This document shows positions 11,248 through 32,163 of a stretch of DNA of 64,000 nucleotides, piece after piece. A program made the translations under genes and the position numbers. Source of the stretch: an uncultured Chlorobiaceae bacterium (GTDB lineage: Bacteria > Bacteroidota > Chlorobiia > Chlorobiales > Chlorobiaceae); the NCBI GenBank assembly GCA_903994525.1, contig CAJEXW010000003.1:52768-116767 (forward strand), given 5' to 3'. A model generated the notes under the pieces. The model searched no databases. It was not told the origin of the DNA and saw only the letters and a program-made list of their open reading frames with translations. Within the stretch, counting starts at the first letter, position 1. The number at the start of each line of letters is the position of its first letter.

Positions 11248-11421
11248 CTACCGGTAGTTTGTGTTTTTATACTCTTCCCGGAGATCCTTGATGCCGGTTG
11301 TCCGGTCGTTACCATCGCTGATAATCCCAAAATATTCAAGAACGATGCGTACCACCAGCCACAGGCCGGCGATAATGAGTGAGAGTGATTCCCAGATATA
11401 ACTGATGCTTTTTTTTACCAT
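11248..11421 (-). CDS. Small single-pass membrane protein (57 aa)
   Basis: Manual translation: MVKKSISYIWESLSLIIAGLWLVVRIVLEYFGIISDGNDRTTGIKDLREEYKNTNYR*. Below the ORF-track cutoff. Confidence 0.6.
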   Translation of the reverse strand: MVKKSISYIWESLSLIIAGLWLVVRIVLEYFGIISDGNDRTTGIKDLREEYKNTNYR

Positions 11422-11512
11422 AGACTTATCAGAAAAATCAATACCCCGTGACCCTCTTCTTCAATGGAGTGGCCAGAGGGTATTGATGAAAGGTCAACCC
11501 CATTCAATCAAT

Positions 11513-11713
11513 TCAATCAGTCAAGCTGTCTTCCGCTTCGCACCAGTCGTCAATATCCGCGCCGTGGTTTTTCCCCCTTGCTTCCCAGCGGTAGTAGGCT
11601 GCAAGTCTTACCTGCTCTTCGCGCATCTCCGGGGTCAGTTCACTCTCTTCCTTTTTGCTTTTTTTTGTTGGAGCCTTTTTTTTGCTCTCTTTTTCAATCG
11701 TTGTCTTTGCCAT
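11513..11713 (-). CDS. DUF2934-like small protein
   Basis: [16 protein letters not shown]...DDWCEAE pattern with a Lys-rich N-terminus. Confidence 0.8.
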
Positions 11714-11781
11714 TGTCTCTTATTTTTTATTGTTGGTATGACCTAACTTATGCAATTTTAGGAAAGAAAAAAAGAGTCCTC

Positions 11782-16949: not shown

Positions 16950-17112
16950 AGAAACTTGTCAATGTTCTGTTCTCGAAGCGTGCGAACGTTGTTGATCAAC
17001 GGAGATTGAGCCTGAATATAAGCATTGCACCCTTTTTTTCGGAAGAGCTTTTTACTTGCTGTTGCGCACTCCGCAGGCTGTTGGACTTATGATGGCCGGA
17101 TGATTCATTACC

Positions 17113-17805
17113 TTATCCCCCAGATGGTTGCAAATGCCCATCTGCCATACGCAGACAGCGATCAGCAAGCGCAGCATACTCTTCGTTATGGGTGACGATA
17201 ACGAAAGAGGTACGCCGCTCCTTGCTCAGCTTTGCCATCAGCTCATAAAGGATGCGGCTGTTCTGGTTGTCGAGGTTGCCGCTTGGCTCGTCGGCCAGCA
17301 CCAGTTTTGGGTTGTTCATCAAGGCCCGGGCAATGGCAACGCGCTGTTGTTCGCCACCGGAGAGTTCTGAGGGGAGGTGGTCGAACCGCTCCGAAAGTCC
17401 CAGGCTTGCCAGCAGTTCTGCTGCCCGTTTTTTTGCTGGCGGCAATGTGTTCGTTGCGATAAATTCTGGCATCGCCACATTTTCGAGGGCGGTGAAGTCG
17501 GAAAGGAGGTGGTGAAACTGAAAGACGAAGCCGATTTTCTGGTTCCTGAACCTGGCCAGCGCCTTTTGGGAGAGCGTGTATTTTGAATCCTTGAACAGGA
17601 GTTCCTTGTCGAACATGATCTCGCCACTGTCGGGGGTGTCGAGGGTACCGAGCAGATTCAGCAAGGTTGTTTTGCCGCTTCCCGAGGCTCCAATGATGGT
17701 CACCATCTCTCCTTCCCCAACAGTTATATCAACCCCGTGAAGAATCTGGATAGTGCGCTTGCCCGGTATGGTGTATGACTTGCTGATATTTGTTGCTGTG
17801 AGCAT
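17113..17805 (-). CDS. lolD: LolD-like ABC transporter ATP-binding protein
   Basis: [43 protein letters not shown]. Confidence 0.75.
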
Positions 17806-17879
17806 TATGACGTTGGTCTGGTTGTGCCGTTTCCGTCGATGATTCCATTGATGCGGTTTATATCTATTTTCAATGTGTG

Positions 17880-18209
17880 TTAATGACCAGCCATGCTGGA
17901 GAATAAATTTATAAGAACAATGCCAATCAGGATCAATGAAATTCCAAGAACTCCAGCAATATCAATTGATTGATCAAAGAAGAATATACCAATTATTGAA
18001 ATGAACAGTATGCCTAAACCACTCCAAATTGCATAAGCTATACTAACGGGAATATCCCTTAACGCTAATGAAAAAAAGTAGAAAGTCACACCATAACCAA
18101 TAATGCAGATAATGTTTGGTATAATTTTTGTAAATCCGGCCGACATTTTCAGAGAGGTTGTTGCTATCACCTCACCCACTATTGCAAGAATAAGAAAGAT
18201 CCATTTCAT
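17880..18209 (-). CDS. SMR-family multidrug/quaternary-ammonium efflux pump (Qac/EmrE-like)
   Basis: AIVGEVIATTSLK with the conserved Glu14, AYAIWSGLG, four TM segments; AT-rich. Confidence 0.92.
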   Translation of the reverse strand: MKWIFLILAIVGEVIATTSLKMSAGFTKIIPNIICIIGYGVTFYFFSLALRDIPVSIAYAIWSGLGILFISIIGIFFFDQSIDIAGVLGISLILIGIVLINLFSSMAGH

Positions 18210-18352
18210 AGTTATCTGATACAATTACAAACCAATTTTCTCTTGCCAACCCGTTACATTCTCCACTATCCGGCTCCGAATATTCTGATACTTTGAGCTT
18301 GCGAGCAATAGTTACCGATCAGGGGGATTATCTTTTCGCAAGAGTTCAACTC

Positions 18353-18712
18353 TCAACTACCGTATTCGCGTTTGCCCAAACTCTCTGCCAAAATGGATGT
18401 TACAAGAGAGTTCATGCTGACACCCTCTTGTTTTGCTCTTATAACCAAACGTGAATGAATGGTTTTAGGTACCCTTTGAATAAACTTGCCACTATACATG
18501 CCACCACTGCCCGGTTCAGGAACAGGCATGTCCAAGCTTTCCAGGGCGGCTATTGTTTCTTGTAAGGCATCCATGCCATTTTCAATGGCTTCGGCTATCG
18601 TTTCGCCGTCTGAAATACATTCAGTAAAGTCATTGAATGAAATCATATAACCACCACCATCTTCTTTTGAGAGGGGACGAATTTCAAATGGGTATTTGCT
18701 TACATTTTTCAT
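18353..18712 (-). CDS. hicB: HicB-family antitoxin (RNase H-like domain plus RHH)
   Basis: YPFEIRPL..EDGGGY.I.F.D...CISDGET..EA, then YSGKFIQRVPKTIH. Confidence 0.88.
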   Translation of the reverse strand: MKNVSKYPFEIRPLSKEDGGGYMISFNDFTECISDGETIAEAIENGMDALQETIAALESLDMPVPEPGSGGMYSGKFIQRVPKTIHSRLVIRAKQEGVSMNSLVTSILAESLGKREYGS

Positions 18713-18715
18713 AGC

Positions 18716-18941
18716 TCAATCCATTATAAAATCAACAAATTTTTTGATGTATGCCGGTTTAATTGGCCTGTGAGCAGGTGCAGGTAATGTCCGACCATCA
18801 CTGCGTATAAAAACGACGTGACTTGTACCGCGTTGTCGCCAGTTTAATATTGTAAGCGCCAGCAACGGTTTTCAGACTATCAATCCGCCAATCAAGGGGA
18901 TTGTTTTGCATTTGCTGGAGGATTTTATCTGCTTTGCTCAC
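18716..18941 (-). pseudogene. hicA: HicA-family toxin, frameshifted by one extra base
   Basis: GTG 18941 gives SKADKILQQMQNNPLDWRIDSLKTVAGAYNIK. After one extra base (ATT AAA C TGG, about 18840-18848) it continues WRQRGTSHVVFIRSDGRTLPAPAHRPIKPAYIKKFVDFIMD*. Total 226 nt = 3n+1. Confidence 0.85.
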
Positions 18942-19048
18942 AAGATGAATGATACTAAACGTGATATCATAATGCAAGTGGGGAAAAGAAAATGAAGAGA
19001 TTTATTTGGTCTTTCAGCTTTCAAAGTCCTGAAATTTCCTTGGCGATT

Positions 19049-19267
19049 TCACAGGCGACAATGGACAAGGGGAGATGTCTTGCCTTTTCGTTTCTCTTCC
19101 AGTACCTCATCGGCGAGCATCTCAAGGATGTCTTCCGATTCTGCAAACGTTTTTTGCCATTTCGCTTCAGAATGGAACTCGTCAAGAAGCCATTTTGCCA
19201 ATGCGTTCTGCTCTACCGCCGGGAGGTTTTCTGCAGTTTTAAATGCCTTGGTGAGCAATGTGGTCAT
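19049..19267 (-). CDS. Putative type II antitoxin, apparently orphaned
   Basis: MTTLLTKAFKTAENLP..EQNALAKWLLDE..SE..W..TF pattern of small antitoxins that usually precede RelE/ParE toxins. Downstream there is only a short GTGA-coupled MKS... stub. Confidence 0.6.
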   Translation of the reverse strand: MTTLLTKAFKTAENLPAVEQNALAKWLLDEFHSEAKWQKTFAESEDILEMLADEVLEEKRKGKTSPLVHCRL

Positions 19268-19299
19268 GCTGTTTTTCCTCTGTCTGCCGGTGATTTTCA

Positions 19300-19387
19300 G
19301 CGTAACGGTTTATGATACTATCTTGTTCTTTGGGGTAAATCGTCTTGTATTATTGAAAGAACAGCGTAGTATACGAAATTATTAGTT
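19300..19387. other. Degenerate attC-like imperfect inverted repeat (88 bp)
   Basis: GCGTAAC-GGTTT-ATGATACTATCTTGTTCTTT ... AAAGAACAGCGTAGTATACG-AAATT-ATTAGTT; inner arms match 14/17. Minus strand ends AAACC-GTTACGC. Confidence 0.4.
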
Positions 19388-19410
19388 CTCAAAACCCGTA
19401 CCCATGACAA

Positions 19411-19659
19411 TTATAATATTGTCTTCCCATGAACCCACAACTCATGTTCACTAATATCGATATCCTTTCGCCAAACAACCGCGTAGCAACCCACATCCAC
19501 TCTCACAGCTCTGAACAGTGCTGCGTTGCTCAATGGTGCAAACATCTCCTTCTCAAGCAAGGGATTAATGTCGTAGGTTTTCTTCTGATGATTATCGAAT
19601 TCAACGAGAAGTGAATGATCATCAATTGCTATTGCGCTTATGATTTTTGGATGATTCAT
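19411..19659 (-). CDS. DUF2442-like protein
   Basis: IISAIAIDDHSLLVEFDN..KKTYDI.PLL...F.PL...F..V.VD.G..VVW..DIDI. Confidence 0.78.
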   Translation of the reverse strand: MNHPKIISAIAIDDHSLLVEFDNHQKKTYDINPLLEKEMFAPLSNAALFRAVRVDVGCYAVVWRKDIDISEHELWVHGKTIL

Positions 19660-19675
19660 CATGCTCATAAGGGTT

Positions 19676-20395
19676 CTATATTGGGTCAGTCTGACTCTCA
19701 GGGTTACGGGGAACGGGTTGAAAGCTATTTGTTGTATCGAAACAGTTTGTCGCTGTTCCTGCAAAAGAACGTATCAGTAGTTGTTTGACAGGAGGATGAT
19801 TTGCAAAAACGGTGTACCAAACAGACAAGAATCCGTTCTGAGTAGCAAAATCTACAATGTCTTGTGCTGTTTTTTGTCCTGCTTCATATTCAGGTAAATA
19901 CTTCATTGCCCACTCCCATGCAATTTTTCTATGTTTCCATCGTTTGTCATTTTGACTCTGCTTTGGATACTTTTTATTACCAGGATACTTATCGAGGCCA
20001 ACCAGGTTAAGCATGTTTTCTGCATGTGTCCGAGAAATGCCCGTCGGTGCAGGATTTACTGTGATAAGTCCACCTTCTTTATAGGAAAACGACAGAAAGG
20101 TGTTGTTCAAATGAGGGAAATGCATTGTTGTGAAATCAACGGGTTTATTTGATTTGCCACCTTTGCCATTACATTTACCACAGGCCAGCAGAAAGTTATC
20201 CCAATCGTGAGCTAATGTGTCGTCTTGATCTTGAGAAATAATGTGTTCGATTTCAAGATCAGAACTGAAAACCTCGCAGTAACTGCAATAGGGCCCAAGA
20301 GTTGCTTCAAGGTCATTATTAGCCTTGGTATGAGGTATATACGATTTAGGTCTTCCTTTTTCCTGGGGCCATGCTGATTTGATTACTGGTCTCAT
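19676..20395 (-). CDS. ptuB: HNH endonuclease, PtuB-like (Septu)
   Basis: CSYCE...LEIEHI...WDNFLLACGKCN; 4-bp overlap with the upstream ATPase. Confidence 0.75.
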   Translation of the reverse strand: MRPVIKSAWPQEKGRPKSYIPHTKANNDLEATLGPYCSYCEVFSSDLEIEHIISQDQDDTLAHDWDNFLLACGKCNGKGGKSNKPVDFTTMHFPHLNNTFLSFSYKEGGLITVNPAPTGISRTHAENMLNLVGLDKYPGNKKYPKQSQNDKRWKHRKIAWEWAMKYLPEYEAGQKTAQDIVDFATQNGFLSVWYTVFANHPPVKQLLIRSFAGTATNCFDTTNSFQPVPRNPESQTDPI

Positions 20396-21699
20396 AGCCC
20401 TTTCACTATTCTTTCGATTTTTAATGCGGCAACAAAAGCGGGATCTTCACCAAATAACTCTTTAAGTTCATTCAGCCTGTTTCTGAGTTGTTGTGTTTTA
20501 TCATCAGTATCACTTGTTTTTCCAGCTTCGATAAGCGTGTAATACTCTTCAGCAACACTCTGTATCTCTAAAAATTCAATACTTCTTGGCATATCTTCAA
20601 CACCCATTTCGTTTGCTGCCACCTCTTCAATACTTTTTCTGAACGGGTCGCCATCTTTCTCGATATCTTCATCAAGAATTATAAGCTCTTCTGATTTAAG
20701 TGACTGAACGATGAATGGCGAATGTGTCGTAACAACAAATTGAATTTCAGGAAAAGCCGTTTTTAAATCATGAACTACATGCCGTTGCCAGTTAGGGTGA
20801 AGATGAAGGTCTATTTCATCAATCATCACAATACCTTTCGTCTCTGAAATGGCTTTGTCATTCTTGTATCCATTCAGCACCACGCAGCGGTATGCAATTT
20901 CGGCCACCATTGCGGTGAAATAGTGAATGCCATCACTATGAAGACTCAGAGGGAGTAATCCGGTTTCGTCATTATCAATGTTGATTTTTACCCATAATTC
21001 ACCATTTATAAACTCAATGTGTGTTATAAAAGGGTTAGCTTTTGTAACTGCTGCAAAAAATGCCTCTTTAGTATTCGGATATTCTTTGCCTTGATCAACC
21101 AGGTGATCATAAGTTCCAAGCCACTCTTCATAATGAAATTTAACAGCTTTCATCTCTTCCCAATCCTGATAGCCTTCCTTAAAAAGCTGCCTACCTAATC
21201 GCTGAATGCGGCTTTTCCTCGTAACTCGCCCGGCACCAACTGCCCGGGTTATACCGAAAAATGCTATCACTGGTAAATCAACCTTATCATCAGATTCTTT
21301 CTGTACTCGATGATATTTTTCAAGAGAAATATTTTTGATAGCACCTACATCAGCATTAGTCGATGTGGTTGAGCTGCTGCCTTCAAGCCACTGCCGACAC
21401 CATGTAATGGTATTATCAAAATCAGGGAAAGAGCCTTCAGTTTCTATTTTTACAGGAAATTGTTGGAGGAGCAACTTGCCTGATTCAATAATCCTTATCT
21501 CGTCTTTTTGAATATGACGTGATTTAACTTCGGGTATTGTGAGAAAGTAAGAACCGGATGCAATTCTCAGAGCGTGAAGAATTGTTGATTTACCTTTTCC
21601 ATTCACACCAATAAATGCGGTAAAATCAGGATTCAGATAAAACGTTTTTTTGCTACCAATATTCCTGAAATTCTGTATAGTGATACGTTTTATATTCAT
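20392..21699 (-). CDS. ptuA: ABC/AAA-type ATPase, PtuA-like (Septu)
   Basis: I.IQNFR, GVNGKGKSTIL, degenerate signature LHSDG, GIVMIDEIDLHLHPNWQR, QFVVTTHSPF. Confidence 0.8.
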   Translation of the reverse strand: MNIKRITIQNFRNIGSKKTFYLNPDFTAFIGVNGKGKSTILHALRIASGSYFLTIPEVKSRHIQKDEIRIIESGKLLLQQFPVKIETEGSFPDFDNTITWCRQWLEGSSSTTSTNADVGAIKNISLEKYHRVQKESDDKVDLPVIAFFGITRAVGAGRVTRKSRIQRLGRQLFKEGYQDWEEMKAVKFHYEEWLGTYDHLVDQGKEYPNTKEAFFAAVTKANPFITHIEFINGELWVKINIDNDETGLLPLSLHSDGIHYFTAMVAEIAYRCVVLNGYKNDKAISETKGIVMIDEIDLHLHPNWQRHVVHDLKTAFPEIQFVVTTHSPFIVQSLKSEELIILDEDIEKDGDPFRKSIEEVAANEMGVEDMPRSIEFLEIQSVAEEYYTLIEAGKTSDTDDKTQQLRNRLNELKELFGEDPAFVAALKIERIVKGL

Positions 21700-21761
21700 C
21701 AGATAAGGTTCTTAGTTCTTAATGAATTTGATTCTTGGTTAGAAAAATCTTTTCGACTCTA

Positions 21762-22163
21762 TTAATTTGACCGATAGATATAAGCATCTTCAATAAAAGA
21801 ACCATTAATGGCATTTCTTGAAAATCTTATACCAGCATTTCCTTCTGATTTAATTGTACATTTCAAGAGTTGCACAATTTTATCGGCTGTGTTGGTTACA
21901 GAAATGTCATGTGTTGATAGTATTTCTTCATCTTCAGAAGCAAAATTATTGGCATTAATGACTTTTCTATAATATTCACGAGGTCCTAAGTCTGTAACTA
22001 ACGGTGAAGCAAGGATAAGTTTCCAGCCTCTATCTTCTTCATTATAAAGCCAAAATGCGCTTGTTAGTTGAGCATTTTCAGTATCAAGCCTTTCAATAAG
22101 CGTTAATCCGGCTTTAATCATTTCATTTGAAAGTATTTCTCTTACCAAAATTTCTTTAGCCAT
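21762..22163 (-). CDS. Hypothetical 133-aa protein coupled to the HEPN gene (possible antitoxin)
   Basis: Intact ORF; its start overlaps the HEPN gene end by 22 nt. Confidence 0.7.
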   Translation of the reverse strand: MAKEILVREILSNEMIKAGLTLIERLDTENAQLTSAFWLYNEEDRGWKLILASPLVTDLGPREYYRKVINANNFASEDEEILSTHDISVTNTADKIVQLLKCTIKSEGNAGIRFSRNAINGSFIEDAYIYRSN

Positions 22164-22558
22164 ATCAAAATTCCTGATTGTGTGTTAGTAATTGCTTCGT
22201 AGAGGTCTTTTGCAGCATTTGCTTCGATGGCGTTTTTATATCGAGCGGTTTCATTCCAATCTTTTGCAATAGACCAATTAAGTTTAAAGTCGTTATCTTG
22301 TTGTTCTTTTTGATTGAGTATTTGCTTTAAATTAGCAGCTCCTAATAAATCTGTAAAGTTATGAGTATAACTTTGGTTCGTCAGCTCTTTATTGGGAAAA
22401 TCATATTGTTAAACTTTTTTAGCTATACATGCTTTAATAGCACATTCAAGAGCATATCCTGCAAGATAATATGCTCCTTCATAGCATTCAGCATCAAAGA
22501 GTACTTTAGCCTCTTTTATTCGTATATCAACAATTTTTTCTAAATCGGATTTATTCAT
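22142..22558 (-). pseudogene. HEPN-domain protein with in-frame TAA
   Basis: MNKSDLEKIVDIRIKEAKVLFDAECYEGAYYLAGYALECAIKACIAKKV*QYDFPNKELTNQSYTHNFTDLL...WSIAKDWNETARY...WLKKFW*. TAA at 22409-22411; 139 codons otherwise open. Confidence 0.8.
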
Positions 22559-23071
22559 GTGATCTTTGGCTTCATTTTAATGATAACAGCGTTTCCATTT
22601 TTTTTCTGCAGGAGCTAACCAGTCATTTAGGCTTTTCACATGATTTAAAATCATTTCATTGCAACGGAAGTTCCAGAGCGAAAAACCGATAATGCTATAT
22701 TATAAGGTTGTTTAGGAGAAAAATGACCTAAAAATGTAGTCACTAATAAATTTGTGTATCATAAATTAATTGCCTATATTTGAGTATAGATTTGATCTAA
22801 ATCTTGGTCTGCGTCACAAACTCTGCTATTATTTCGGCAAAAATATCCCAAAGTAGTCACAATAATTAAGAACACGCTAATTCTATAAATTATTTCTGAA
22901 TAATAAGTTACTGTTATTTCTTGCTTGATTTTTTCTGGAACCTCCGTTGCAACTACAAGTTAAGTATGATTCAATGATAATTTTATCGTTTAGTATTTCA
23001 AGTTAAATATTATCGTGAATGGCTATATTTTTCAATTTATTATATGGTTTTGTAGGGGGCGGGGAGCTTCA

Positions 23072-23500
23072 TTATGAAATGACGAACCAATTTTCTATTA
23101 CCAACCCGTTAAATACAACAAAGTCCTTAACGTTGCGCGTTACCAAAACTAAATTATTAACATAAGCAATCGAGGCTATTTGACCATCCACAAAGGAAGG
23201 CATTTTACCTTGCTCAGTTAACTTTGCGCGCTGTTTCGAATGCCACAAGGCAGCTTCAGCGTTGTAATCAAAAATTGGCAAGGTGGCAAGAATGACGTTA
23301 TCAATATATTGCTGAATATTTAACCGTTGTTTTGAATTCTCGGGTAATCGCCAGCATCCAAATGCAATTTCATGTAAAACAATACTTGCTGTAGATAACT
23401 CTTCATTTTTGATATTGATGTTTTCGACGATACTCTTTGATGGATTTGGTTTGAGTACCTCCGAAAGAATATTTGTGTCGAGTAGATATCGTGATTTCAT
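23072..23500 (-). CDS. vapC: VapC PIN-domain toxin
   Basis: YLLDTNILSE, LHEIAFG, FVDGQIASIA, LVTRNVKDF. Confidence 0.92.
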   Translation of the reverse strand: MKSRYLLDTNILSEVLKPNPSKSIVENINIKNEELSTASIVLHEIAFGCWRLPENSKQRLNIQQYIDNVILATLPIFDYNAEAALWHSKQRAKLTEQGKMPSFVDGQIASIAYVNNLVLVTRNVKDFVVFNGLVIENWFVIS

Positions 23501-23778
23501 AGTTCAATGTCTCTACCGCCTGATGTATCTCGAACATTATTGAAAATTTCATCTGCATCTGCAAATTGATGAAGATCAACGGATTCTCGATAACGTTGTA
23601 ATTCATTGCAAAATCCGTTATCACTAGACGCATTGTTTGCAGGAATAGTGCGATCAGCCATTTTTATTTTAATAAGTAGACGTAGAGCGTATTCCAGTAA
23701 ATTGCGACTATCAGAAACCCCGGTAAGACGGGAAGCCTGACTTAATAAATTATCATCAATAATAGTCTGTATGTTCAT
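23497..23778 (-). CDS. vapB: VapB-like antitoxin
   Basis: IDDNLLSQASRLTG...LLEYALR RHH-type start; ATGA overlap with vapC. Confidence 0.75.
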   Translation of the reverse strand: MNIQTIIDDNLLSQASRLTGVSDSRNLLEYALRLLIKIKMADRTIPANNASSDNGFCNELQRYRESVDLHQFADADEIFNNVRDTSGGRDIEL

Positions 23779-23929
23779 TTGTGCTTACCTCATCAAGCAA
23801 TTATTATGATAAGATTAACTTTTTTTCGGATTGTTTCCTTTCCGGTTTCAATCGCGATAGGATACGTTCCGCGAATTTTTGCTTCGTGAATGAATTCCTA
23901 AACAAGAATTCATTCACTGTAGCTCTGCT

Positions 23930-24119
23930 GCCGACTATTTCAAATTCCAAGAAAATCTCTTTTGCAGGAACTGATTCTATCTCTCCCCCCAAATTTTAAA
24001 CTTCTTCTCTCTCACTTTTAGAGTCAGAAGAATAGAAGAGATGATTCAATAAGTTCAATTCTTTCTATGGGGTAGAGTTTCTCTGTCGCCGGATATATCT
24101 GCTTTGCTTGAGTCATCAT
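23930..24119 (-). pseudogene. Degraded addiction-module (antitoxin-like) gene remnant
   Basis: MMTQAKQIYPATEKLYPIERIELIES, then in another frame LFYSSDSKSEREEV*..GEIESVPAKEIF. Resembles putative addiction-module components; several disruptions. Confidence 0.45.
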
Positions 24120-24193
24120 AACGGTATTCTCTGCTATACCTCAATTTACCAAAAAAAGTACAATCAAAGGCAACTCAAGTCCTATGAAATCTT

Positions 24194-24250
24194 GGCTAAC
24201 GTAAAGTTATGGGGCGAGTTCCTCTCGAACGCCCTGACAGAACGTTCATG
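24194..24250. other. attC-like site (57 bp)
   Basis: GGCTAAC-GTAAA-GTTATGGGGCG-agttcctctcgaa-CGCCCTGAC-AGAAC-GTTCATG: AAC/GTT cores, 5-bp spacers, paired inner arms with bulges. Lies 4 bp beyond the helicase stop. Confidence 0.55.
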
Positions 24251-24254
24251 AAAA

Positions 24255-27200
24255 CTATTTTGCACTTGATATTGCAAGTTCCAAAGCAGCTTGCATTTCA
24301 TCAACGACCCGTCCATTATCTTCCATGGGCGTGAATTTCCATATCCTTTTTTCTACCAGGTTTGGCGCATGTTCCATGGCTTCCGTCGGTTCAATTCCAA
24401 GAGCAGTAAGGCGCTCCAGGAGTTCATGCAGAACATCATCTTTACGGAGTGACCACGTGGAAGCGAAGCAGCGCCAGAATACCCAGCCAGCTCTTTCCAG
24501 AACACGTTGACGATTCATGTCATGCGGCCATCGGTCAGGCCCGTGGTATTCATCGCCATCCAGCTCAATTGCCAGGCGGTTATCCCCTGCGCCCTCAACG
24601 ACCATGTCGATACGGTAAGCGCCTGTCTTCACTTGTGGAGTAACACGATACCCACGAGACGCAAGGATGGAAAACACTTCCCGCTCAAACCCTGACTCGC
24701 ATTGGTCAATCAGCAGGCAGGCAGCCCCTTTGTCAGTCACCATCGGCTGGTTGAAGTGGTTGAGCAAGGTAAGGCGTAAATCCTTATCTGATAAATCGGC
24801 TGTTTTTACGGAGCGAACCAGATACATCCGATCGCGTGCCCGGCTTGCTGCCACGTTGAACCGTTGGTCAAATTTCAGACCAGAAAGCGCATGACAATTT
24901 TTGCTGTCCACCACCATCGACAGGAACATGATGTCCCTTTCACTCCCTTGAAATGTGCGGGCTTCCCCGCTTACAAATTTGCGGTGAAGGAGTTCGGTGG
25001 CATCGCACTGTTGACGCACGATGGAGTCAATGTGTTTAGCTTGATCCATTCCCAGCAGTGAAACGACACCCATGGTACGACCTGCAAAAGCTTCATTTTT
25101 CAGAATGGCCGAAATTTCCTCAGCAATGGCCTGAGCTTCATAATTGTTATGGTCGTGCTTGTCACGGAAGCCATCGGTGACGAAAATATCGACAAGTGGC
25201 GGCTCAATTCGCTCTGAGGTCTTTGGAATACGTAACGGCTGAATTCCCCCTTTGTAAAACAGACGATTGGCGTAGGCAATGATGGGCGGGACACAACGGA
25301 AATGCTCGCGTAGCATGACTTGTTCAGCAGCGAAGACGCGGGCCGCCAGATCATAGAGAGATTTTTCCGGTGTCATTTCTGTTCCATAAGGCTGCCCGGA
25401 AAGATAGCGAACCTTGAGTGCCTGAATTTTTTGACCCGAGATAAAACTGCCATCCGGGGAGACCTGTTTATCGTCACCTACGACCAGAATTTTCTTCCCG
25501 CGAAGGATAGCGGGAAGCGCCCATAAATCAGATTGACTCGCTTCATCGACAATGACAAGGTCGAAGCTTCCAATGTCTGGCGGCATAGCCTCCGATATAC
25601 GGGCATGGCTCATGATCCAGCAGGGGACTGCACCGGCAGCATCCAACATAGCTTCTCGTGCATCTCTGCGATACCGTGTTGCGTTTGGGCCTGTTCCCTG
25701 ACCGATACGGCGGATAGCAGTTGCATAGCCTGCAAATCAAGGGGCCAGCCGCTCTCGCCGGACTCCAGTTCTTCTGCCAAAGTTTTGGCTTCTTCAACTA
25801 ACTCAAGAAGATCCCTCGCCGCGATGAGAACCTCGGCAGTTGTAGCCTTCAAATCAAGAAGGTCACCACGTTCAACCTCCGCCTCAATCCTCCTTATACT
25901 GGAGAGTGTTTCATGCAGTTCGGCGATTGCAACCGTTGTTGGAAGTGAATCAGCAGACGGGTAGTTCGCCGTTACATAAACCAAATCTTGTCCGACCTTT
26001 CGCCGTGCTTCACGGAGTTTGCCTGCCTCCTCTTCGGTGAGAGGTGGCGCATTTTCCGTAGAGAGGGTTATCTCATCATCAAACCAGCCGTGCTGTTCTA
26101 ATCCGGACGTAACCAACTCAGCAAGCTTCTGTGCGCGCATTGGTACGCCATCAACCTCTATCTCTGAAAGCTGTGCAATCGCAATCTCATCAATGCGAGT
26201 GTCAATTGAGACAAGCTCGTGGTGGGCGCGATCAATGGCGCTTTCCAGTGTCGCGATGTCATGCCGTGTCTGTTCCGGATTGAGCTGTGATACCTGATGC
26301 TGAATCGTCTCGATTGATGCTTGAAACTGGCGGACACCTTCACGGTCGCTGGCCATAAGCGCCACAGTCAGGGCGCCAACCTCCTCTGGTATTTTGGATT
26401 GGAGTACTTGAAGCGCAGGCTCTCCACGTGAGGTGACAAGAACCCGTCTGCCAGTCGCCAGATAGTGGCAAATAACATTGGCAATGGTGTGTGTCTTGCC
26501 AGTACCCGGCGGTTTTTGCACAGCGACACCCGCAGCTTTTTCAAGCCGTTGAATGATGGTAACCTGCTCTTCGTTGTAGGGCAGGGGAAAATAAAGCTCC
26601 TCGGCTTTACCCTGACTTGATCCGCGACTTGATAGCCCACGGAAACGAATAGTCTCGAATTCTACTGGTTTGTCTGAAGGCGGGGTCACAAGGGCGAGTG
26701 GGCCAGATGGAATATCGCATCCGGTCGCCAGTTTCTCCTTCAGGCGTTTTAAATCATCCGTCAGATAGTGAGTGGTGCGCGGTCGTGAAAGCAACACCCA
26801 GGAATCTGTAACGATCAAGTCGGCATCGGGGGCAGGAACAAGTTCGCCCCTTGAAAGGATCTCCCGATAGCTACCGTTGCTATCCATGTTTGATGCTGCA
26901 AGTTTGAGTATATCGGTATAGCTCGAAGCATCAAACGGGGTAACAGGATTTTCGTTATGCCTTTGGAGATGCTCCTTTATAGCTCGCTCAACGTCAGTAG
27001 AGCCGGGGAGCGAGCATGCAGCGAACGCATCCATTTCCACTCGCGTATCGGTAGATCGGGGACGAACATCCAGCGCCATGCTTTTCTCGTCTATAGAAAT
27101 TTCAACGGCTTGAGTGAGCAATGGATATTCAAAACTGACGATGCTTTCTTCAAACGGGATCTGCCAAGACGCAACGCCTATGCCCCATACGAGCTCCTGA

Positions 27201-27733
27201 GGTTTGGCTGTCTCTTCGGCTTCAATCTGGTGTCTCAATGCGAACAGATCGCCATAAAGGGAGATGCTCTTGCGACGCGGGCGCTCACCCTCAGCCCAAG
27301 CGTTCCATTGTAGCAGGTATTCCTGGAGGGCAGCTTCAGCTTTCTGCCTCAACTGTTTTTCTCCCGGCTTTGCTTGAGAAGTTTCTGCCAAATGAGGATC
27401 AACCTTTGATTCATGCTGGTCAATCCAGGTGATCAGATGGCCTTCATCAAGTGTGGGAGGCTCACCAAACGGGTCATTACTGATAATGAACAGCCCCTTG
27501 AACGGGTCGGAAACAATTGGAGGGCGATGGGCTTCAAGGCGCGCCAGGTGTAGCCAGATGTGGTCGCCCTCTGGTCGAAGATCGAATTCAAGACCGGGGA
27601 GTCCAGCCAAATCAGTATTGCGACGAACAAATCCCTTCGCGGCAGAAATGCGGTAGCCTTTCGGGTCAATATCTTTTGCTTGCTCTTCGATGTATTCCAG
27701 CAATCCTTTGAGCAGGTCACGAGGTGACGGCAT
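24255..27733 (-). pseudogene. Large SF1 (DNA2/NAM7-like) helicase with C-terminal Vsr/DUF559-like nuclease, split into two frames
   Basis: N part: Walker A KPPGTGKT, LVTS, EEQ Q-motif. C part: VIVDEASQ, VGDDKQ, LREHFRC, FQGSERD, RFNVAASRAR, SGFEREV, IELDGDEYH. The frame changes near 25735; the conserved AIRRIGQGTG segment lies in the C-part frame upstream of its ATG. Confidence 0.8.
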
Positions 27734-27840
27734 AATTACTTCTTTTTGTGCAATGCTGAGTTAAGTCTTACTCCGAATATTCTAATACTATTCTTTTTTT
27801 TAACACAAGTATTACAAAAATAGCACAAATGCGCTGACAT

Positions 27841-28764
27841 TCATTCAAATTGCAGAGATTGTTGGTCTTGGCTCAAAATAACCTCTTCAGGTACACCCTC
27901 AAAGCGTAATTTGCTCTCCTCGGCATAGTCGCTTCTGAGTTCTACCCCCACCCATTGTCGCTTCAGGCCATCAGCGACATATCCAGTGGTGTTGCTCCCT
28001 GCAAATGGATCAAGTACTAAATCACCGGGGTTCGTCAGAAATTCTATGAAAAATCTCGGTAGCTCTGCCGGAAAACGGGCAGGGTGTATTTTATTTCCAG
28101 CAATTTTACTGTTCTTTATATAAGCGCTGTTCGATTCATTATTTCCACACTGGATAAGGTTGGATGGAATTGAACCTCCTCTATCGCTTGCAAAGGTAGC
28201 GTTGATGATATGACCGCTTGGGCGGATTGTCTGCTTTACTCCGCGTTTGATCAGGCGCTTCATATCCTCGCTGTATGGCTGGAGAACTTTTCGATTATCA
28301 GCCTTTGCCATTGGATCCTTGACAAACCAGAAAATATACTCCACGCTGTCTTTTACCCGAATGCGACGAACATTGACCCACTCTGCGGGTGCTGGCATTT
28401 TTGCTGGATTGAACCAGAAAAATTCTTGAGCCAAATCAAAACCCACTTCGTCAACAAGAGAAAGCAGGACGCGATAATGGTACAAACTGCGAATTGGTAA
28501 ACCGGGCTGCCATGCGCCACCAAGGTTCAGAACGAAGGAGCCGGATGGCTTCATGATTCGTTTGATTTCTCGAGCGAAAGGAAGGAGCCAAGCAATGTAA
28601 TCTTGCTGATTTGCATTGCCATACTCTTTTTTAAAGTGAAGAGCGTAGGGGGGACTGGTAAGAACCAGATCGACAGAATCGTTATCAATTTGCCGCATGA
28701 ATTCGAGGCTGTCAGCGCAGAACAACGCCCCAAACGCACTCTTGTAGATTGGTTCAGCTTGCAT
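27841..28764 (-). CDS. Site-specific DNA methyltransferase, beta class, M.PvuII-like (probably N4-cytosine)
   Basis: [59 protein letters not shown]. Motif order and blocks match my recollection of M.PvuII. Confidence 0.85.
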
Positions 28765-29287
28765 AAGCATCAATGATGTCCTGAAAACGTGAGAACCAGC
28801 GAGGCTCTGTCTCTGCCCCTTCTGGAATGGAGTGCATGACCTGAAGTTTATCTGGATGATTCCGATGACCGAGAAGTTCTCGTACTAATGCGTATCTGAA
28901 TTGACTCCAATCGCCAGTGGAGCGACCGACACAAACAGCCACAACATCGAAGTGGTTACGGTCGTAGTAACGGCTACTGGGATCAGCTTTGGCTGCGCGT
29001 GTTTTTTGTAGCTCAACCTTGGGTTTCGGGCCATTGCGTATGGTCTTGACTTCAACCCGTATGGATATTTCTGAAAGCGTCACAACGGTAAAGTCATGCA
29101 TCCCATCTCTATCATGGCTCTCATAGCTCGTTAACCAACCTTCTCGGCTTGCGATGCGGAGCTTTCTCTCGAAATGAACCTCGGCTACGGCTCCTTCCAA
29201 GGCCACCTTCAGGCGAAATCGCTTGTCAATGGCATCCAGCAACTCTTGAGCTGTCAGGCCATATTTCAGTTCGAGTGCGTGAGGCAT
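28754..29287 (-). CDS. Putative PD-(D/E)XK endonuclease (177 aa)
   Basis: AVAEVHF...GMHDF...IRVEVKT gives an E..D..ExK arrangement; overlaps the MTase start. Confidence 0.6.
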
Positions 29288-29323
29288 GGTGTTATAATGG
29301 ATAAAAATACGTTATTTTCTGGT

Positions 29324-29434
29324 TTAGAGTGGCAGCGTTTCCATAGATTGCCGGTAATACATCATATTCTTTTTGAACGTTTTCTCACTACCAATATTTC
29401 TGAAATTCTGTATGGTGATACGCTTATAGTTCAT
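29324..29434 (-). pseudogene. Truncated 5' copy of ptuA
   Basis: MNYKRITIQNFRNIGSEKTF versus PtuA MNIKRITIQNFRNIGSKKTF (18/20), then unrelated sequence and a stop after 36 aa. Confidence 0.8.
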
Positions 29435-29469
29435 TGGATACAGATGTTGGTTCTTAATGAATCTGATCC
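29376..29469. repeat. Diverged direct repeat of 21641-21734
   Basis: Ungapped manual alignment 75/94 identical, offset 7735 bp. Covers the ptuA leader and first 20 codons. Confidence 0.85.
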
Positions 29470-29519
29470 ATTTACGCTGGTTTCAGTTGGTCTATAGTTC
29501 ACCATGCTCCTCCCACCCA

Positions 29520-30776
29520 TCATACCGGCCTCACTTGCCCATTCCCCTCAATAATCCATTTATAGGTCGTCAGTTCTTTCAGCGCCATTGGCCCTCGTGC
29601 ATGCAGCTTTTGCGTGCTGATGCCGATCTCAGCCCCAAGGCCGAATTGTGCGCCGTCGGTGAAGGCGGTTGAGGTGTTGGCATAGACCACGGCGGCATCA
29701 ACGCGTTTCAGGAAGGTGGCGGTTGTGGCGGCATCGGTGGCGATGATGGCTTCGCTGTGGCGGGAGCTGTAGTGCGCGATGTGTTCCAGCGCCTCTTCAA
29801 GGGATGAGACGGTTTTTACTGACATTTTCAGAGAGAGGAATTCTGTGCCGAAATGCTCGGGTTCGGCTAACTGAAGGAGCGCATCAGGGTAGTGGCTGTG
29901 CAGGGCGGCAAAAGCGGCCTCATCGGCAAAGAGCAGCACCTGCTTCTCCAGAAGAGGCTCAACAAGGGCAGGGAGGTCGCCAAGACGGTCGCGGTGGATG
30001 ATGAGGGTGTCGAGAGCGTTGCAGACGCTGGGGCGTCGGGTTTTGGCGTTGAAGATCACCTGTTTGCCAAGCTCAAGGTCGCCGCTTTTGTCGAAATAGG
30101 TGTGCACAATGCCTGCGCCGGTTTCGATGACGGGAACCTTGGCGTTGTCGCGCACAAAGTCGATCAGCTTTTGGCTCCCTCTTGGAATGATCATGTCGAT
30201 GTAGCCAACCGCATTGAGCATGATGGCGGCGGCCTCACGCTCTGCGGGTAGCAGATAGATGGTATCGGGGTTGATGCCGTGCTCCTTCAGAACGTTATGG
30301 ATAAGCTCCACAATGGCGATGTTGGAGTACATGGCATCGCTGCCGCCTTTCAGTACGGTGGCGTTCCCCGACTTCAGGCAGAGGGCGAAGACGTCGAAGG
30401 TGACATTTGGCCTTGCTTCGTAGATGATGCCAATGACGCCGATGGGAACAGTCACCTTTTTCAGGCTAAGCCCGTTCTGAAGCATTCGCTCTTCAAGCAC
30501 CACATCGAGCGGGGAGGTGAGCGACGCCACGTTGCGGATGTCGGCGGCAATGGCTTTGAGCCTTGCAGGGTTCAACAGCAGCCGGTCAACCATTGGGTCA
30601 GCGGGATCCATTCGCTCCACATCTTTTTTGTTGGCGGTTAGAATGGCCTCCTGGTGAGCAGGTATTCTGTCGGCAAGGTCACAAAGCAGACGGTTGATCG
30701 CCTCATCGGTCAGGGTGATGATCTCGCGGCTTGCCTGCAAGACCGCTCCAAGCTGTTTCGTTATCGTTTCCTTCAT
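29520..30776 (-). CDS. proA: Gamma-glutamyl phosphate reductase
   Basis: [54 protein letters not shown]. Confidence 0.96.
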
Positions 30777-31871: not shown

Positions 31872-32163
31872 CGTTTAGTGAAGCTGTTCCTGACCATAGT
31901 TGCAACGTACCCCGGGGTGCCAATACTTGCCAGCAGCAGGAGAAAGGGTCTGAGATACGTAAAGTTGAGCATCGGTTAAACCAGTCATCCCGATAATGAA
32001 GATAATCTGCAAAATAATGTTTTGTAATTTTCCTGATTAGAATTAATCTGCAAGATAAACCTTTTTTATTATACAGTTACTTACATGACAAAGCGTTACC
32101 ATTTTCTTAAACGTTCTGATTGATCTCCATGTTGTTTTTTTTAATTAAATAATCCTATGAATT

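What the first reader, a model, noticed from the sequence alone, without database searches (positions are those of the whole stretch)
17880..29475. Integrase-less defence/TA island with cassette-array-like architecture
Seen: about 14 co-oriented, tightly packed genes and remnants between lolD and proA, mostly AT-rich. They include an RM-like pair, helicase-nuclease, vapBC, a HEPN pair, ptuAB, hicAB and an SMR pump. Two attC-like hairpins sit at gene ends, along with a ptuA 5' duplicate and a shared 19-bp motif; no integrase, transposase or tRNA is present. Known: integron arrays and CALINs collect TA, qac and anti-phage genes. Inference: an eroding cassette array or recombination-driven defence hotspot at a fixed chromosomal locus.
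Basis: partly seen in the sequence, partly recalled or inferred. Interest (0 to 1): 0.7.

Follow-up and report, generated by a model that had tools for sequence, protein, structure and literature searches.

The report
Chlorobium defence/toxin-antitoxin hotspot, not an integron
An 11.7-kb patchwork of phage-defence and toxin-antitoxin genes, about half of them decaying, sits in a gap that is only 4-11 bases long in most green sulfur bacteria; it was built and reshuffled by ordinary recombination, not by an integron.

Summary
The island is real. Between proA (29520-30776) and lolD (17113-17805) lie about 15 co-oriented, mostly AT-rich genes and relics.

- **Intact:** a type II RM pair, vapBC, Septu ptuAB, a QacE-like SMR pump, hicB, DUF2442 and two lone partner genes.
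- **Broken:** a helicase-nuclease (1.09-kb deletion), HEPN (nonsense codon), hicA (+1 frameshift), plus ptuA, vapC, brnT and proA stubs.

In 26 Chlorobiaceae species proA and lolD are 4-11 nt apart. Relatives with 96-98% identical ProA carry very different contents, including Shedu, a second Septu, OLD-like genes and other toxin-antitoxin pairs. It is therefore a true variable hotspot.

The integron/CALIN reading fails:
- A scanner that recovers 8 of 9 real attC sites finds none at gene ends.
- Intergenic folds are at shuffle level.
- Module edges are fuzzy and lack GTTRRRY.
- No IntI-like gene lies in the window or in 63 related loci.

The 19-bp motif is BrnT coding relic. The ptuA duplicate is a scar of one-sided recombination. 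One contig is a recombinant that crosses over inside a shared module.

Verdict: a core-gene-flanked defence/TA hotspot shaped by homologous and illegitimate recombination and erosion. It is a new member of a known kind.

The parts
17113..17805 (-). lolD-type ABC ATPase, the fixed right flank of the hotspot
   Evidence: Pfam ABC_tran 1e-33. It lies next to proA in all Chlorobiaceae loci that contain both genes.
17077..17108 (-). 5' relic of a DUF2442 gene just downstream of lolD, in the second hotspot (lolD|hydrolase)
   Evidence: 78% over 32 nt to the start of the intact DUF2442 gene at 19628-19659. It reads MNHPAIISPT.... An intact DUF2442 occupies this site in L021 and L024.
17806..17855 (-). 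Relic of the ancestral proA 3' end, still joined to the lolD start codon; the right boundary of all variation
   Evidence: It reads ..IIDGNGTTRPTS* against ProA ..[11 protein letters not shown], and matches the empty-site proA ends. The last 44 nt of L019 proA align here. Similar relics occur in L009, L013, L045 and L030.
17880..18224 (-). Qac-type SMR efflux pump (probable start at 18209)
   Evidence: Multi_Drug_Res 4e-31. Best NCBIfam model is SMR_qac_int, 127.8 bits against a cut-off of 188. It is 63-65% identical to QacE over 60 aa. The exact protein always sits between hicB and lolD in 22 contigs.
18223..18259 (-). vapC 3'-end relic directly upstream of the SMR gene
   Evidence: 86% over 37 nt to the 3' end of the intact vapC at 23078-23114.
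18274..18292 (-). brnT toxin relic, copy 1 of the '19-bp motif'
   Evidence: It reads SIRIFGAG* (sequence). The same codons lie at the end of a BrnT ORF in L024 (Pfam BrnT_toxin 3.6e-19) and of a brnT pseudogene in L029.
18353..18712 (-). hicB antitoxin, intact
   Evidence: Pfam HicB 1.9e-09. 83-93% identical to hicB in 20 or more loci.
18716..18977 (-). hicA toxin pseudogene (+1 C at 18842)
   Evidence: It splits into two ORFs. An intact 86-aa ORF is present in L007, L009, L012 and L014. The indel was located.
19049..19267 (-). orf72, an orphan antitoxin of a ParE-like toxin
   Evidence: In L010 and L015 it is followed by a 92-aa ParE_like toxin (5.9e-14), which is absent here.
19411..19662 (-). 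DUF2442 gene (83 aa)
   Evidence: Pfam DUF2442 4.5e-13. The module also occurs at the lolD|hydrolase site in L021 and L024.
19676..21699 (-). Septu ptuA (20392-21699) and ptuB (19676-20395), intact
   Evidence: PADLOC PtuA 2.2e-103 and PtuB 1.9e-66. 99% identical to L011 and 91% to L009.
21762..22163 (-). orf133, the conserved partner of the HEPN gene; no known family
   Evidence: No Pfam, NCBIfam or PADLOC hit. It has 139 homologues. In Ectothiorhodospiraceae and Marinomonas it is preceded by the same HEPN gene with a 22-nt overlap.
22142..22558 (-). HEPN gene (weakly AbiV-like) inactivated by a nonsense codon at 22409-22411
   Evidence: C to T at 22411 relative to the intact 138-aa ORF in L011. 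Pfam HEPN 2.8e-05 and AbiV 1.3e-03 on the intact copy.
22665..22946 (.). 282-nt MITE with 13-bp terminal inverted repeats and a 6-bp TTGCAA target duplication
   Evidence: L011 and L015 show the empty site with a single TTGCAA. The repeat arms were found (I6).
23072..23778 (-). vapC (23072-23500) and vapB (23497-23778), intact
   Evidence: Pfam PIN 2.4e-08 and VapB_antitoxin 5.9e-06. 97-99% identical in L011 and L015.
23840..23931 (-). About 90-nt hairpin-bearing small repeat element
   Evidence: DNA fold z = -3.3. Two further copies lie in L024, one inside hicA and one inverted upstream of proB.
24255..27733 (-). SF1 helicase with MTES_1575/DUF559 nuclease (Hhe/PDC-S37-like), a pseudogene with a ~1.09-kb internal deletion near 25733
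   Evidence: AAA_11, AAA_12 and MTES_1575. PADLOC PDC-S37 3e-47. Intact 1523-1534-aa ORFs are present in L013 and L018. The deletion junction lies at a CCCTTG..TGC microhomology.
27771..27789 (-). Second brnT-like relic, copy 2 of the '19-bp motif'
   Evidence: It reads NSIRIFG (context). 18 of 19 identical to copy 1.
27841..29287 (-). Type II RM module: PD-(D/E)xK nuclease orf177 (28754-29287) and N6/N4 DNA methyltransferase (27841-28773)
   Evidence: N6_N4_Mtase 2.7e-44 and MTase_II 4.6e-117. The orf177 model has pLDDT 87.8 and matches I-Ssp6803I, EcoRV and Hjc. The pair travels together in 8 different contexts.
29376..29467 (-). Stub of an older, proA-adjacent ptuA allele (33 nt upstream plus the first 59 nt of coding sequence)
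   Evidence: 80% to 21641-21732. It is collinear with the proA-ptuA junction of L009 and breaks at ..GAAAACGTT|CAAAAAG.
29520..30776 (-). proA, the fixed left flank of the hotspot
   Evidence: Identified as the proA orthologue by 70-98% identity to the gene that follows proB across the 58 related Chlorobiaceae loci; Pfam gives only a weak Aldedh hit, 9.2e-09 over residues 107-265. Homology with relatives ends at 29508-29519.

Best explanation
This is a chromosomal insertion hotspot in a freshwater Chlorobium lineage, not a mobile element or an integron.

**Setting.** In most Chlorobiaceae proA and lolD are separated by 4-11 nt, so they are probably co-transcribed (inferred). In the Chlorobium ferrooxidans-related clade a first insertion (hicAB) opened this gap and left the old proA 3' end stranded next to lolD.

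**Growth.** The gap then accumulated toxin-antitoxin and anti-phage modules.
- New DNA arrives from co-occurring Chlorobium lineages and, for the RM module, ultimately from other phyla.
- It is fixed in two ways. One is homologous recombination, using proA, lolD or modules already shared as anchors. The other is one-sided, homology-facilitated illegitimate joins.
- The illegitimate joins leave short stubs of whatever gene was cut: ptuA 5', vapC 3', brnT, proA 3' and DUF2442 5'.

**Decay.**
- Microhomology-mediated deletions and point mutations then erode the modules.
- Toxins or effectors are lost first (hicA, parE, HEPN, helicase), while antitoxins or partners persist.
- Selection trims modules to roughly gene-sized units.
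- Co-orientation in this window most likely reflects the need to keep transcription running through to lolD (inferred).

**Shown:** the fixed flanks, the empty sites, the mosaic, the scars and the pseudogenes.

**Inferred:** the route of DNA entry (natural transformation is known in Chlorobaculum tepidum, from my own knowledge), the order of events, and that the intact modules (RM, Septu, vapBC, SMR) are functional.
For: **Fixed flanks, variable content**
- proA and lolD are adjacent in about 48 Chlorobiaceae loci. In 26 species the gap is 4-11 nt.
- Ten species carry hicAB or a fragment of it. The relatives with 96-98% ProA identity hold 1.5-7.2 kb or more of differing content.
- Cargo seen elsewhere in the hotspot: Shedu SduA_C, a second Septu, OLD-TOPRIM with an AbiGi-like gene, PIN and ParE toxin-antitoxin pairs. 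Non-defence genes occur too: histidine decarboxylase, a Na/H exchanger and a periplasmic binding protein.

**Evidence of exchange**
- Module identity to L011 is 96.8-99.4%, against 92.7-94.3% for proB and proA.
- L003 is 99.8% identical to the window up to about 26950 and 99.4% identical to L006 from about 26864 on. The crossover lies inside a shared helicase fragment.
- The same modules occupy a second site, lolD|hydrolase, in other species.

**Scars**
- ptuA stub; vapC and DUF2442 stubs; brnT relics.
- proA 3' relics next to lolD and inside the islands of L006, L015, L018 and L029.
- Module edges differ by a few to tens of nt between contexts.

**Erosion**
- Helicase deletion at a microhomology, hicA +1 frameshift and HEPN nonsense codon; lost parE.

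**Not an assembly artefact**
- The arrangement recurs in 21-22 independent contigs from several samples.

**Published parallels**
- Core-gene-flanked hotspots that are not obviously any mobile element (PMC10250203).
- Toxin-antitoxin acquisition in high-turnover spots followed by toxin pseudogenisation (PMC13617665).
Against: - The island is flanked by a duplicated proA 3' end (the current proA end and the relic at 17806-17855). That is also what site-specific integration into a gene's 3' end leaves, so an integrase may have made the founding event.
- L003, the cleanest recombinant, comes from a short-read metagenome assembly. The stretch identical in both parents is only about 84 nt, so an assembly chimera cannot be excluded.
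- The rest of the genome could not be searched for an integrase or for attC sites.
- No expression or functional data exist for any gene.
Confidence: 0.8

Rival explanations
1. It is a degenerate integron cassette array (CALIN). The modules were captured as attC-bearing cassettes by an integron integrase that has since been lost or is encoded elsewhere.
For: - The genes are co-oriented, tightly packed and mostly lack obvious promoters.
- Modules are nearly gene-sized and their 3' edges fall within a few nt of stop codons.
- The cargo (toxin-antitoxin, qac-type SMR, defence) is typical of chromosomal integrons. The best NCBIfam model for the SMR is the integron-type SMR_qac_int, though below its cut-off.
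Against: - A structure-based attC scanner that recovers 8 of 9 real attC sites in three class 1 arrays finds one candidate in the island. It lies inside the helicase coding sequence, with dG of -3.5 to -6 kcal/mol against -13 to -34 for real sites. Candidate density is at the level of the rest of the window.
- All nine gene-end regions fold no better than shuffles (z from -0.8 to +0.7), against z of -3.6 and -5.3 for real attC sites.
- RM-module edges in 6-8 contexts differ from each other and carry no GTTRRRY.
- tblastn with IntI1 gives no hit below E = 0.2 in the window plus 63 loci, 1.08 Mb in all.
- Some hotspot genes in relatives lie on the opposite strand.
- Intergenic DNA consists of relics of coding genes, not recombination sites.
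Confidence: 0.03
2. The locus began as, or repeatedly received, integrase-borne integrative islands that target the 3' end of proA. The integrase genes were later deleted, and the proA 3' relics are old attR-type sites.
For: - A proA 3'-end copy bounds the island on the lolD side in the window, L009, L013, L045 and L030. Further proA fragments from divergent donors lie inside the islands of L006, L015, L018 and L029.
- This pattern resembles tandem accretion at an att site.
Against: - No tyrosine or serine recombinase was seen in any of about 20 occupied variants of the site.
- The relics differ in length and in which part of proA they cover. Those in L015 and L018 lack the stop-proximal part, which is not what a fixed att core would give.
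- hicAB-only species have no relic at all.
- One-sided illegitimate recombination explains the same relics.
Confidence: 0.12
3. The mosaic is an artefact of metagenome assembly or binning that joined DNA from several strains.
For: The window matches MAG-type records, and several comparison loci are short-read MAG contigs. L003 could be a chimera.
Against: - The identical arrangement from proA to the SMR and lolD recurs in 21-22 contigs from different samples and sources. One is a 130-kb contig of GCA_903994395.1.
- The HEPN and hicA defects seem to recur in independent assemblies: gene calls there give the truncated 49-aa HEPN ORF and no hicA gene. The MITE is present at 99.7% in L001 and L004.
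Confidence: 0.02

Closest known systems
Core-gene-flanked defence hotspots, such as cDHS1 and cDHS2 of Pseudomonas aeruginosa (Johnson et al. 2023, PMC10250203), and E. coli pan-genome defence-island hotspots (Hochhauser et al. 2023, PMC10121019)
   Same: - Constant flanking core genes and an empty state in many genomes.
- Highly variable, low-GC cargo rich in defence systems.
- Not obviously any class of mobile element.
   Different: - It is much smaller (0-12 kb or more, against a median of 26 kb).
- It sits inside what looks like an operon (a proA-lolD gap of 4-11 nt), not next to a tRNA or tmRNA gene.
- Toxin-antitoxin modules and their relics outnumber defence systems.
- It is in Chlorobiaceae, where I found no paper describing such hotspots (one full-text search).
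Toxin-antitoxin 'spots' with acquisition and erosion in bacterial chromosomes (Belot et al. 2026, PMC13617665)
   Same: - Toxin-antitoxin modules cluster in small high-turnover spots.
- Modules are gained independently and lost by deletion or toxin pseudogenisation. Here hicA, parE and HEPN are lost while hicB, orf72 and orf133 are kept.
   Different: That study found that toxin-antitoxin systems rarely cluster with anti-phage systems and are often associated with transposases or integrases. Here toxin-antitoxin and defence modules share one spot, and no recombinase gene is present.
Sedentary chromosomal integrons and CALINs (clusters of attC sites lacking an integrase)
   Same: Co-oriented, compact, largely promoterless genes. 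The cargo includes toxin-antitoxin, qac-type SMR and anti-phage genes.
   Different: There are no attC sites, no GTTRRRY junctions, no IntI and no exact cassette boundaries. Spacers are relics of coding genes.
Homology-facilitated illegitimate recombination during natural transformation, and 'insertion with long target duplication' of RM units (from my own knowledge; not checked in the library)
   Same: A foreign segment is joined by homology on one side (ptuAB) and by an illegitimate joint on the other (inside the ptuA 5' end). This leaves a short duplicated stub.
   Different: Here it is inferred only from sequence scars. The two ptuA copies are 80% identical, so they are different alleles, not a fresh duplication.

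Membership tests
Integron / CALIN | Two or more attC sites (R''-L''...L'-R' imperfect palindromes of 50-150 nt with RYYYAAC and GTTRRRY) at the 3' ends of cassettes | tested here: not met
   My own scanner, validated on 9 real attC sites (8 recovered), finds one weak candidate, inside the helicase coding sequence. Gene-end folds are at shuffle level. IntegronFinder's covariance model itself could not be run.
Integron / CALIN | Integron integrase (intI) with attI next to the array (complete integrons only) | tested here: not met
   tblastn with IntI1 against the window and 63 Chlorobiaceae loci gives a best E of 0.24. No recombinase Pfam hit among island ORFs. The rest of the genome was not searchable.
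Integron / CALIN | Exact, recurrent cassette boundaries at G|TTRRRY | tested here: not met
   The 5' and 3' edges of the RM module differ between 6-8 contexts and lack the core site.
Core-gene-flanked defence/TA hotspot | The same flanking core genes across genomes, with empty and occupied states | tested here: met
   proA and lolD are adjacent in about 48 loci. The gap is 4-11 nt in 26 species and 0.3-7.2 kb or more in the rest.
Core-gene-flanked defence/TA hotspot | Content varies among close relatives and is enriched in defence and toxin-antitoxin genes | tested here: met
   Searches show the mosaic. Septu (two types), RM, Shedu, OLD-like, AbiG-like, Hhe-like helicase, and the HicAB, VapBC, ParE, BrnT and PIN modules are identified.
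Core-gene-flanked defence/TA hotspot | No hallmark genes of a self-mobile element | tested here: met
   No integrase, transposase, relaxase or phage gene was found among the ORFs scanned in the window and in variants. Only a non-autonomous MITE is present.
Integrative genomic island | Direct repeats formed by duplication of the target gene's 3' end (attL/attR) | tested here: inconclusive
   A decayed proA 3' copy lies at 17806-17855 and in several relatives. The relics vary in extent and are missing in hicAB-only species.
Integrative genomic island | Integrase gene at one end | tested here: not met
   None in any variant.
Septu (PtuAB) | Adjacent PtuA ABC-type ATPase and PtuB HNH nuclease | tested here: met
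   PADLOC PtuA 2.2e-103 over the full length and PtuB 1.9e-66 over the full length. The genes overlap by 4 nt. Defence activity was not tested.
Type II restriction-modification | DNA methyltransferase with an adjacent endonuclease | tested here: met
   N6_N4_Mtase and MTase_II. orf177 has a D65...E79-V-K81 motif and a PD-(D/E)xK fold. The pair is always linked. Specificity and activity cannot be tested with these tools.
HEPN-MNT toxin-antitoxin | HEPN toxin paired with a minimal nucleotidyltransferase antitoxin | tested here: not met
   The partner orf133 has no NTP_transf or other Pfam, NCBIfam or PADLOC hit. The pair is nevertheless conserved across phyla.

The most novel reading that the evidence does not exclude
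The near gene-sized modules (RM, hicAB, DUF2442, orf72/parE, HEPN-orf133) turn up co-oriented at two or three intergenic sites around lolD, with edges close to start and stop codons. They could be moved by an unrecognised mechanism that needs no attC, such as a recombinase encoded elsewhere in the genome or a transformation-linked capture process specific to operon gaps. The alternative is random illegitimate joins that selection later trims.
Probability: 0.06. Interest if true: 0.7.

Novelty: new member of a known kind. Interest (0 to 1): 0.3.

Why it matters
- It documents, junction by junction, how a defence and toxin-antitoxin hotspot grows from a 4-11-nt operon gap to about 12 kb in an uncultured freshwater phototroph, without any resident mobility gene.
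- It shows the usual order of decay: toxins or effectors go first, antitoxins last.
- It is a caution for genome scanning. Co-orientation, compactness, short shared motifs and partial duplicates look like cassettes but can all be relics of cut genes.
- It flags one uncharacterised, widely distributed two-gene module (HEPN plus orf133) as a candidate toxin-antitoxin or abortive-infection system.
- It shows that one RM pair is 75-91% identical across several phyla.

Tried and rejected
- **attC covariance model.** I aligned 8 real attC sites with MAFFT. The alignment put the 3' halves of the longer sites out of register, and five of the eight are near-identical. A model built from it would have been narrow and misleading, so I used a structure-based scanner with positive controls instead.
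- **First scanner settings.** These were too strict and recovered only 3-4 of 9 real sites. I relaxed them after inspecting the real sites.
- **Rfam.** Gathering and E-value modes gave nothing in the island or the window.
- **Terminator and promoter scans.** Both were at shuffle level.
- **orf177.** A PDB sequence search and Pfam, NCBIfam and PADLOC scans gave nothing. Only the fold comparison was informative.
- **HEPN defect.** I first read it as a frameshift. Alignment showed an in-frame nonsense codon.
- **The 19-bp motif as a recombination site.** Rejected because it is BrnT coding sequence.
- **A riboswitch upstream of the SMR.** None found.
- **intI elsewhere in the genome.** This could not be tested.

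Full report
**What is there**

All coding capacity between lolD (17113-17805) and proA (29520-30776) is on the - strand. GC falls to 0.30-0.44 over 18000-24500 against 0.50-0.58 in the flanks. The helicase and RM parts are 0.44-0.53.

Reading from proA towards lolD, the island contains:
- a 92-nt ptuA stub (29376-29467);
- orf177 (28754-29287), overlapping an N6/N4 DNA methyltransferase (27841-28773; PADLOC MTase_II 4.6e-117);
- an SF1 helicase fused to an MTES_1575/DUF559 nuclease, split into two ORFs (25610-27733 and 24255-25649; PADLOC PDC-S37, Hhe and Mko-like);
- vapB and vapC (23497-23778 and 23072-23500);
- a truncated HEPN ORF (22409-22558) followed by orf133 (21762-22163);
- ptuA and ptuB (20392-21699 and 19676-20395; PtuA 2e-103, PtuB 2e-66);
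- DUF2442 (19411-19662);
- orf72 (19049-19267);
- hicA in two frames (18716-18977) and hicB (18353-18712);
- a Qac-type SMR pump (17880-18224).

orf177 has no sequence-family hit. It carries a D65...E79-V-K81 motif, and its AlphaFold model (pLDDT 87.8) best matches PD-(D/E)xK nucleases: I-Ssp6803I at E = 2e-5, then EcoRV and Hjc. Its homologues are 75-91% identical in Acidobacteriota, Betaproteobacteria, Armatimonadota and others. The RM pair is therefore real and very mobile.

There is no tRNA in the window and no Rfam family.

**Source and reliability**

The window is identical to a 130-kb contig of GCA_903994395.1. The same arrangement recurs in 21-22 contigs from several lake metagenomes. 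The organism is an uncultured freshwater Chlorobiaceae bacterium, related to Chlorobium ferrooxidans by ProA identity. This recurrence makes an assembly artefact unlikely.

**Comparative test**

Using ProA, I fetched 58 Chlorobiaceae loci with 10-kb flanks and mapped all island proteins onto them.
- proA and lolD are neighbours throughout the family.
- In 26 species the proA stop and the lolD start are 4-11 nt apart.
- Ten species of the C. ferrooxidans-related clade have hicAB or a piece of it in the gap (0.3-1.0 kb).
- Genomes with 96-98% ProA identity to the window carry very different sets of genes:
  - DUF2442-orf72-hicAB (L007, L010);
  - ptuAB-DUF2442-orf72-hicAB with a truncated RM (L009);
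  - a second, 47%-identical Septu plus unknown genes plus the helicase block (L011);
  - Septu-2, RM, Shedu and an intact helicase (L018);
  - PIN toxin-antitoxin pairs, histidine decarboxylase, a Na/H exchanger, and OLD-TOPRIM with an AbiGi-like gene.

The window's 11.7 kb is the largest complete interval in the set.

**Mosaic structure**

blastn resolves the island into modules that recur in other arrangements:

| Module | Window coordinates |
|---|---|
| RM | 29340-27837 |
| Helicase | 27766-24220 |
| vapBC | ~24007-22947 |
| HEPN-orf133 | 22665-21760 |
| ptuAB | 21732-~19700 |
| DUF2442 | 19666-19420 |
| orf72 | 19311-19043 |
| hicAB | 19037-18359 |

- The SMR segment (18349-17856) is found only in the window's own population.
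- Some modules also sit between lolD and the next gene, an alpha/beta hydrolase. RM is there in L019, L020 and L045; DUF2442 and orf72 are there in L021 and L024. The window keeps a DUF2442 5' relic at that site (17077-17108).
- Module identity to L011 (96.8-99.4%) exceeds the identity of proB and proA to the same genome (92.7-94.3%). The modules have therefore moved between lineages more recently than the lineages split.
- L003 is 99.8% identical to the window from proB to about 26950 and 99.4% identical to L006 from about 26864 through lolD. This is a crossover inside a helicase fragment that both parents share. L003 is a short-read metagenome contig, so a chimera cannot be ruled out.

**The integron test**

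- I fetched three class 1 integron arrays as positive controls and wrote a structure-based attC scanner. It requires RYYYAAC...GTTRRRY 50-150 nt apart, forces R-box pairing, and counts L-box and overall hairpin pairs with DNA energy parameters.
- After tuning it recovers 8 of 9 real attC sites.
- At the same thresholds the whole window gives four loci. One is in the island (25870-25944). It lies inside the helicase coding sequence, with dG of -3.5 to -6.1 kcal/mol against -13.5 to -34 for real sites.
- Nine gene-end regions fold no better than dinucleotide shuffles (z from -0.8 to +0.7). Two real attC sites give z of -3.6 and -5.3.
- Inverted-repeat, terminator and promoter counts are at background.
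- The RM module seen in 6-8 contexts has different breakpoints each time and no GTTRRRY.
- tblastn with IntI1 finds nothing in the window plus 63 loci, 1.08 Mb in all.
- Several hotspot genes in relatives are on the opposite strand.

I could not run IntegronFinder's own model or search the rest of the genome. Within those limits, the integron/CALIN reading is not supported.

**What the 'cassette-like' signatures are**

- **The 19-bp motif.** It encodes 'IRIFGAG', the conserved C-terminus of BrnT toxins. The same codons end a BrnT ORF in L024 (Pfam BrnT_toxin 3.6e-19) and a brnT pseudogene in L029. The window thus holds two brnT relics.
- **The ptuA duplicate.** It is collinear with the proA-ptuA junction of L009 and stops abruptly at ..GAAAACGTT|CAAAAAG. 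The intact ptuA and its upstream orf133 are 99% identical to L011. The simplest reading has three steps:
  1. A resident proA-ptuAB arrangement, like that of L009.
  2. Incoming RM-helicase-vapBC-HEPN-orf133-ptuAB DNA.
  3. A homologous crossover in ptuAB on the right and an illegitimate joint inside the resident ptuA 5' end on the left.
- **Other scars.**
  - A vapC 3' stub directly upstream of the SMR gene (18223-18259).
  - A decayed copy of the ancestral proA 3' end still fused to the lolD start (17806-17855, '..IIDGNGTTRPTS*').
  - proA fragments from divergent donors inside the islands of L006, L015, L018 and L029.

**Erosion**

- The helicase lacks about 1.09 kb present in the intact 1523-1534-aa genes of L013 and L018. 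The junction lies at a CCCTTG..TGC microhomology.
- hicA has an extra C at 18842.
- HEPN has C to T at 22411, giving Q50stop.
- The ParE-like toxin that follows orf72 in L010 and L015 is gone.
- In three modules the toxin or effector is dead and its partner survives. This matches the acquisition-and-erosion model described for Photorhabdus (PMC13617665).

**Mechanism and rivals**

[quoted passage not shown] It is fed by homologous and one-sided illegitimate recombination and pruned by deletion. I put this at 0.8.

Co-orientation in the window is best explained by the operon context: proA and lolD are 4-11 nt apart when the site is empty. That is an inference.

The main rival is that an integrase-borne island targeting the proA 3' end founded the locus. 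It is suggested by the duplicated proA end. It is weakened by the lack of any recombinase in about 20 variants and by the irregular extent of the relics. I give it 0.12. I give the integron reading 0.03 and assembly artefact 0.02.

**Novelty and interest**

This is a new member of a known kind. The locus is a clear worked example, but it would not surprise a specialist. I score interest at 0.3.

The side findings are listed separately:
- a conserved HEPN-orf133 pair;
- a MITE;
- a small hairpin repeat;
- replacement of the native SMR gene upstream of proB.

Noticed in passing
window 21762-22558 (-); L011 18918-19714; L089 3606-4408; L090 3495-4408: A 138-aa HEPN protein (weakly AbiV-like) and the 133-135-aa orf133, which has no known family, form a two-gene module with a conserved 22-nt overlap. 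The module is found in Chlorobium, Ectothiorhodospiraceae BW-2 and Marinomonas ef1, with the HEPN protein 54% and 69% identical and orf133 51% and 66% identical to the Chlorobium proteins. It is a candidate uncharacterised toxin-antitoxin or abortive-infection pair. In the window the HEPN gene carries a nonsense codon.
   Followed up: partly
window 22665-22946 (target duplication at 22947-22952 and 22659-22664): A 282-nt MITE with 13-bp terminal inverted repeats (CGGAGGTTCCAGA / TCTGGAACTTCCG) and a 6-bp TTGCAA target duplication. L011 and L015 show the empty site. The window holds a single copy and no transposase, so a trans-acting transposase must exist or have existed in this lineage.
   Followed up: partly
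window 23840-23931; L024 8071-8161 (inverted) and 12278-12366 (inside hicA): A ~90-nt repeat element with a perfect 12-bp hairpin (GTGAATGAATTC..GAATTCATTCAC; DNA fold z = -3.3). It occurs in at least three unrelated contexts, once interrupting hicA. It looks like a small mobile or REP-like element.
   Followed up: partly
window ~31880-32010 (-), upstream of proB; compare L006 8573-8824: Most relatives encode an SMR transporter immediately upstream of proB. In the window lineage only its last few codons remain ('..IIFIIGMTGL...GQEQLH*'). A different, QacE-like SMR sits in the island 14 kb away. This may be a functional replacement, and it marks a third variable spot.
   Followed up: partly
window 16950-17112, and the lolD|hydrolase interval in L017, L019-L021, L024, L032, L037, L040 and L045: The gap between lolD and the alpha/beta hydrolase gene is a second hotspot. 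In other species it holds the same RM pair, DUF2442/orf72 modules and a PIN (VapC-like) gene. The window retains only a 19-codon DUF2442 relic there.
   Followed up: partly
window 37939-38825 (+): The prmC-like methyltransferase reads as two overlapping ORFs in different frames in my ORF call. The matching record L001 annotates one 294-aa gene over the same span. This is either a start-codon or frame artefact of my crude ORF caller or a frameshift; I did not resolve it.
   Followed up: no
L024 ~11380-11850: The brnT toxin and brnA-like antitoxin reading frames appear fused in one frame, with no stop codon between them.
   Followed up: no
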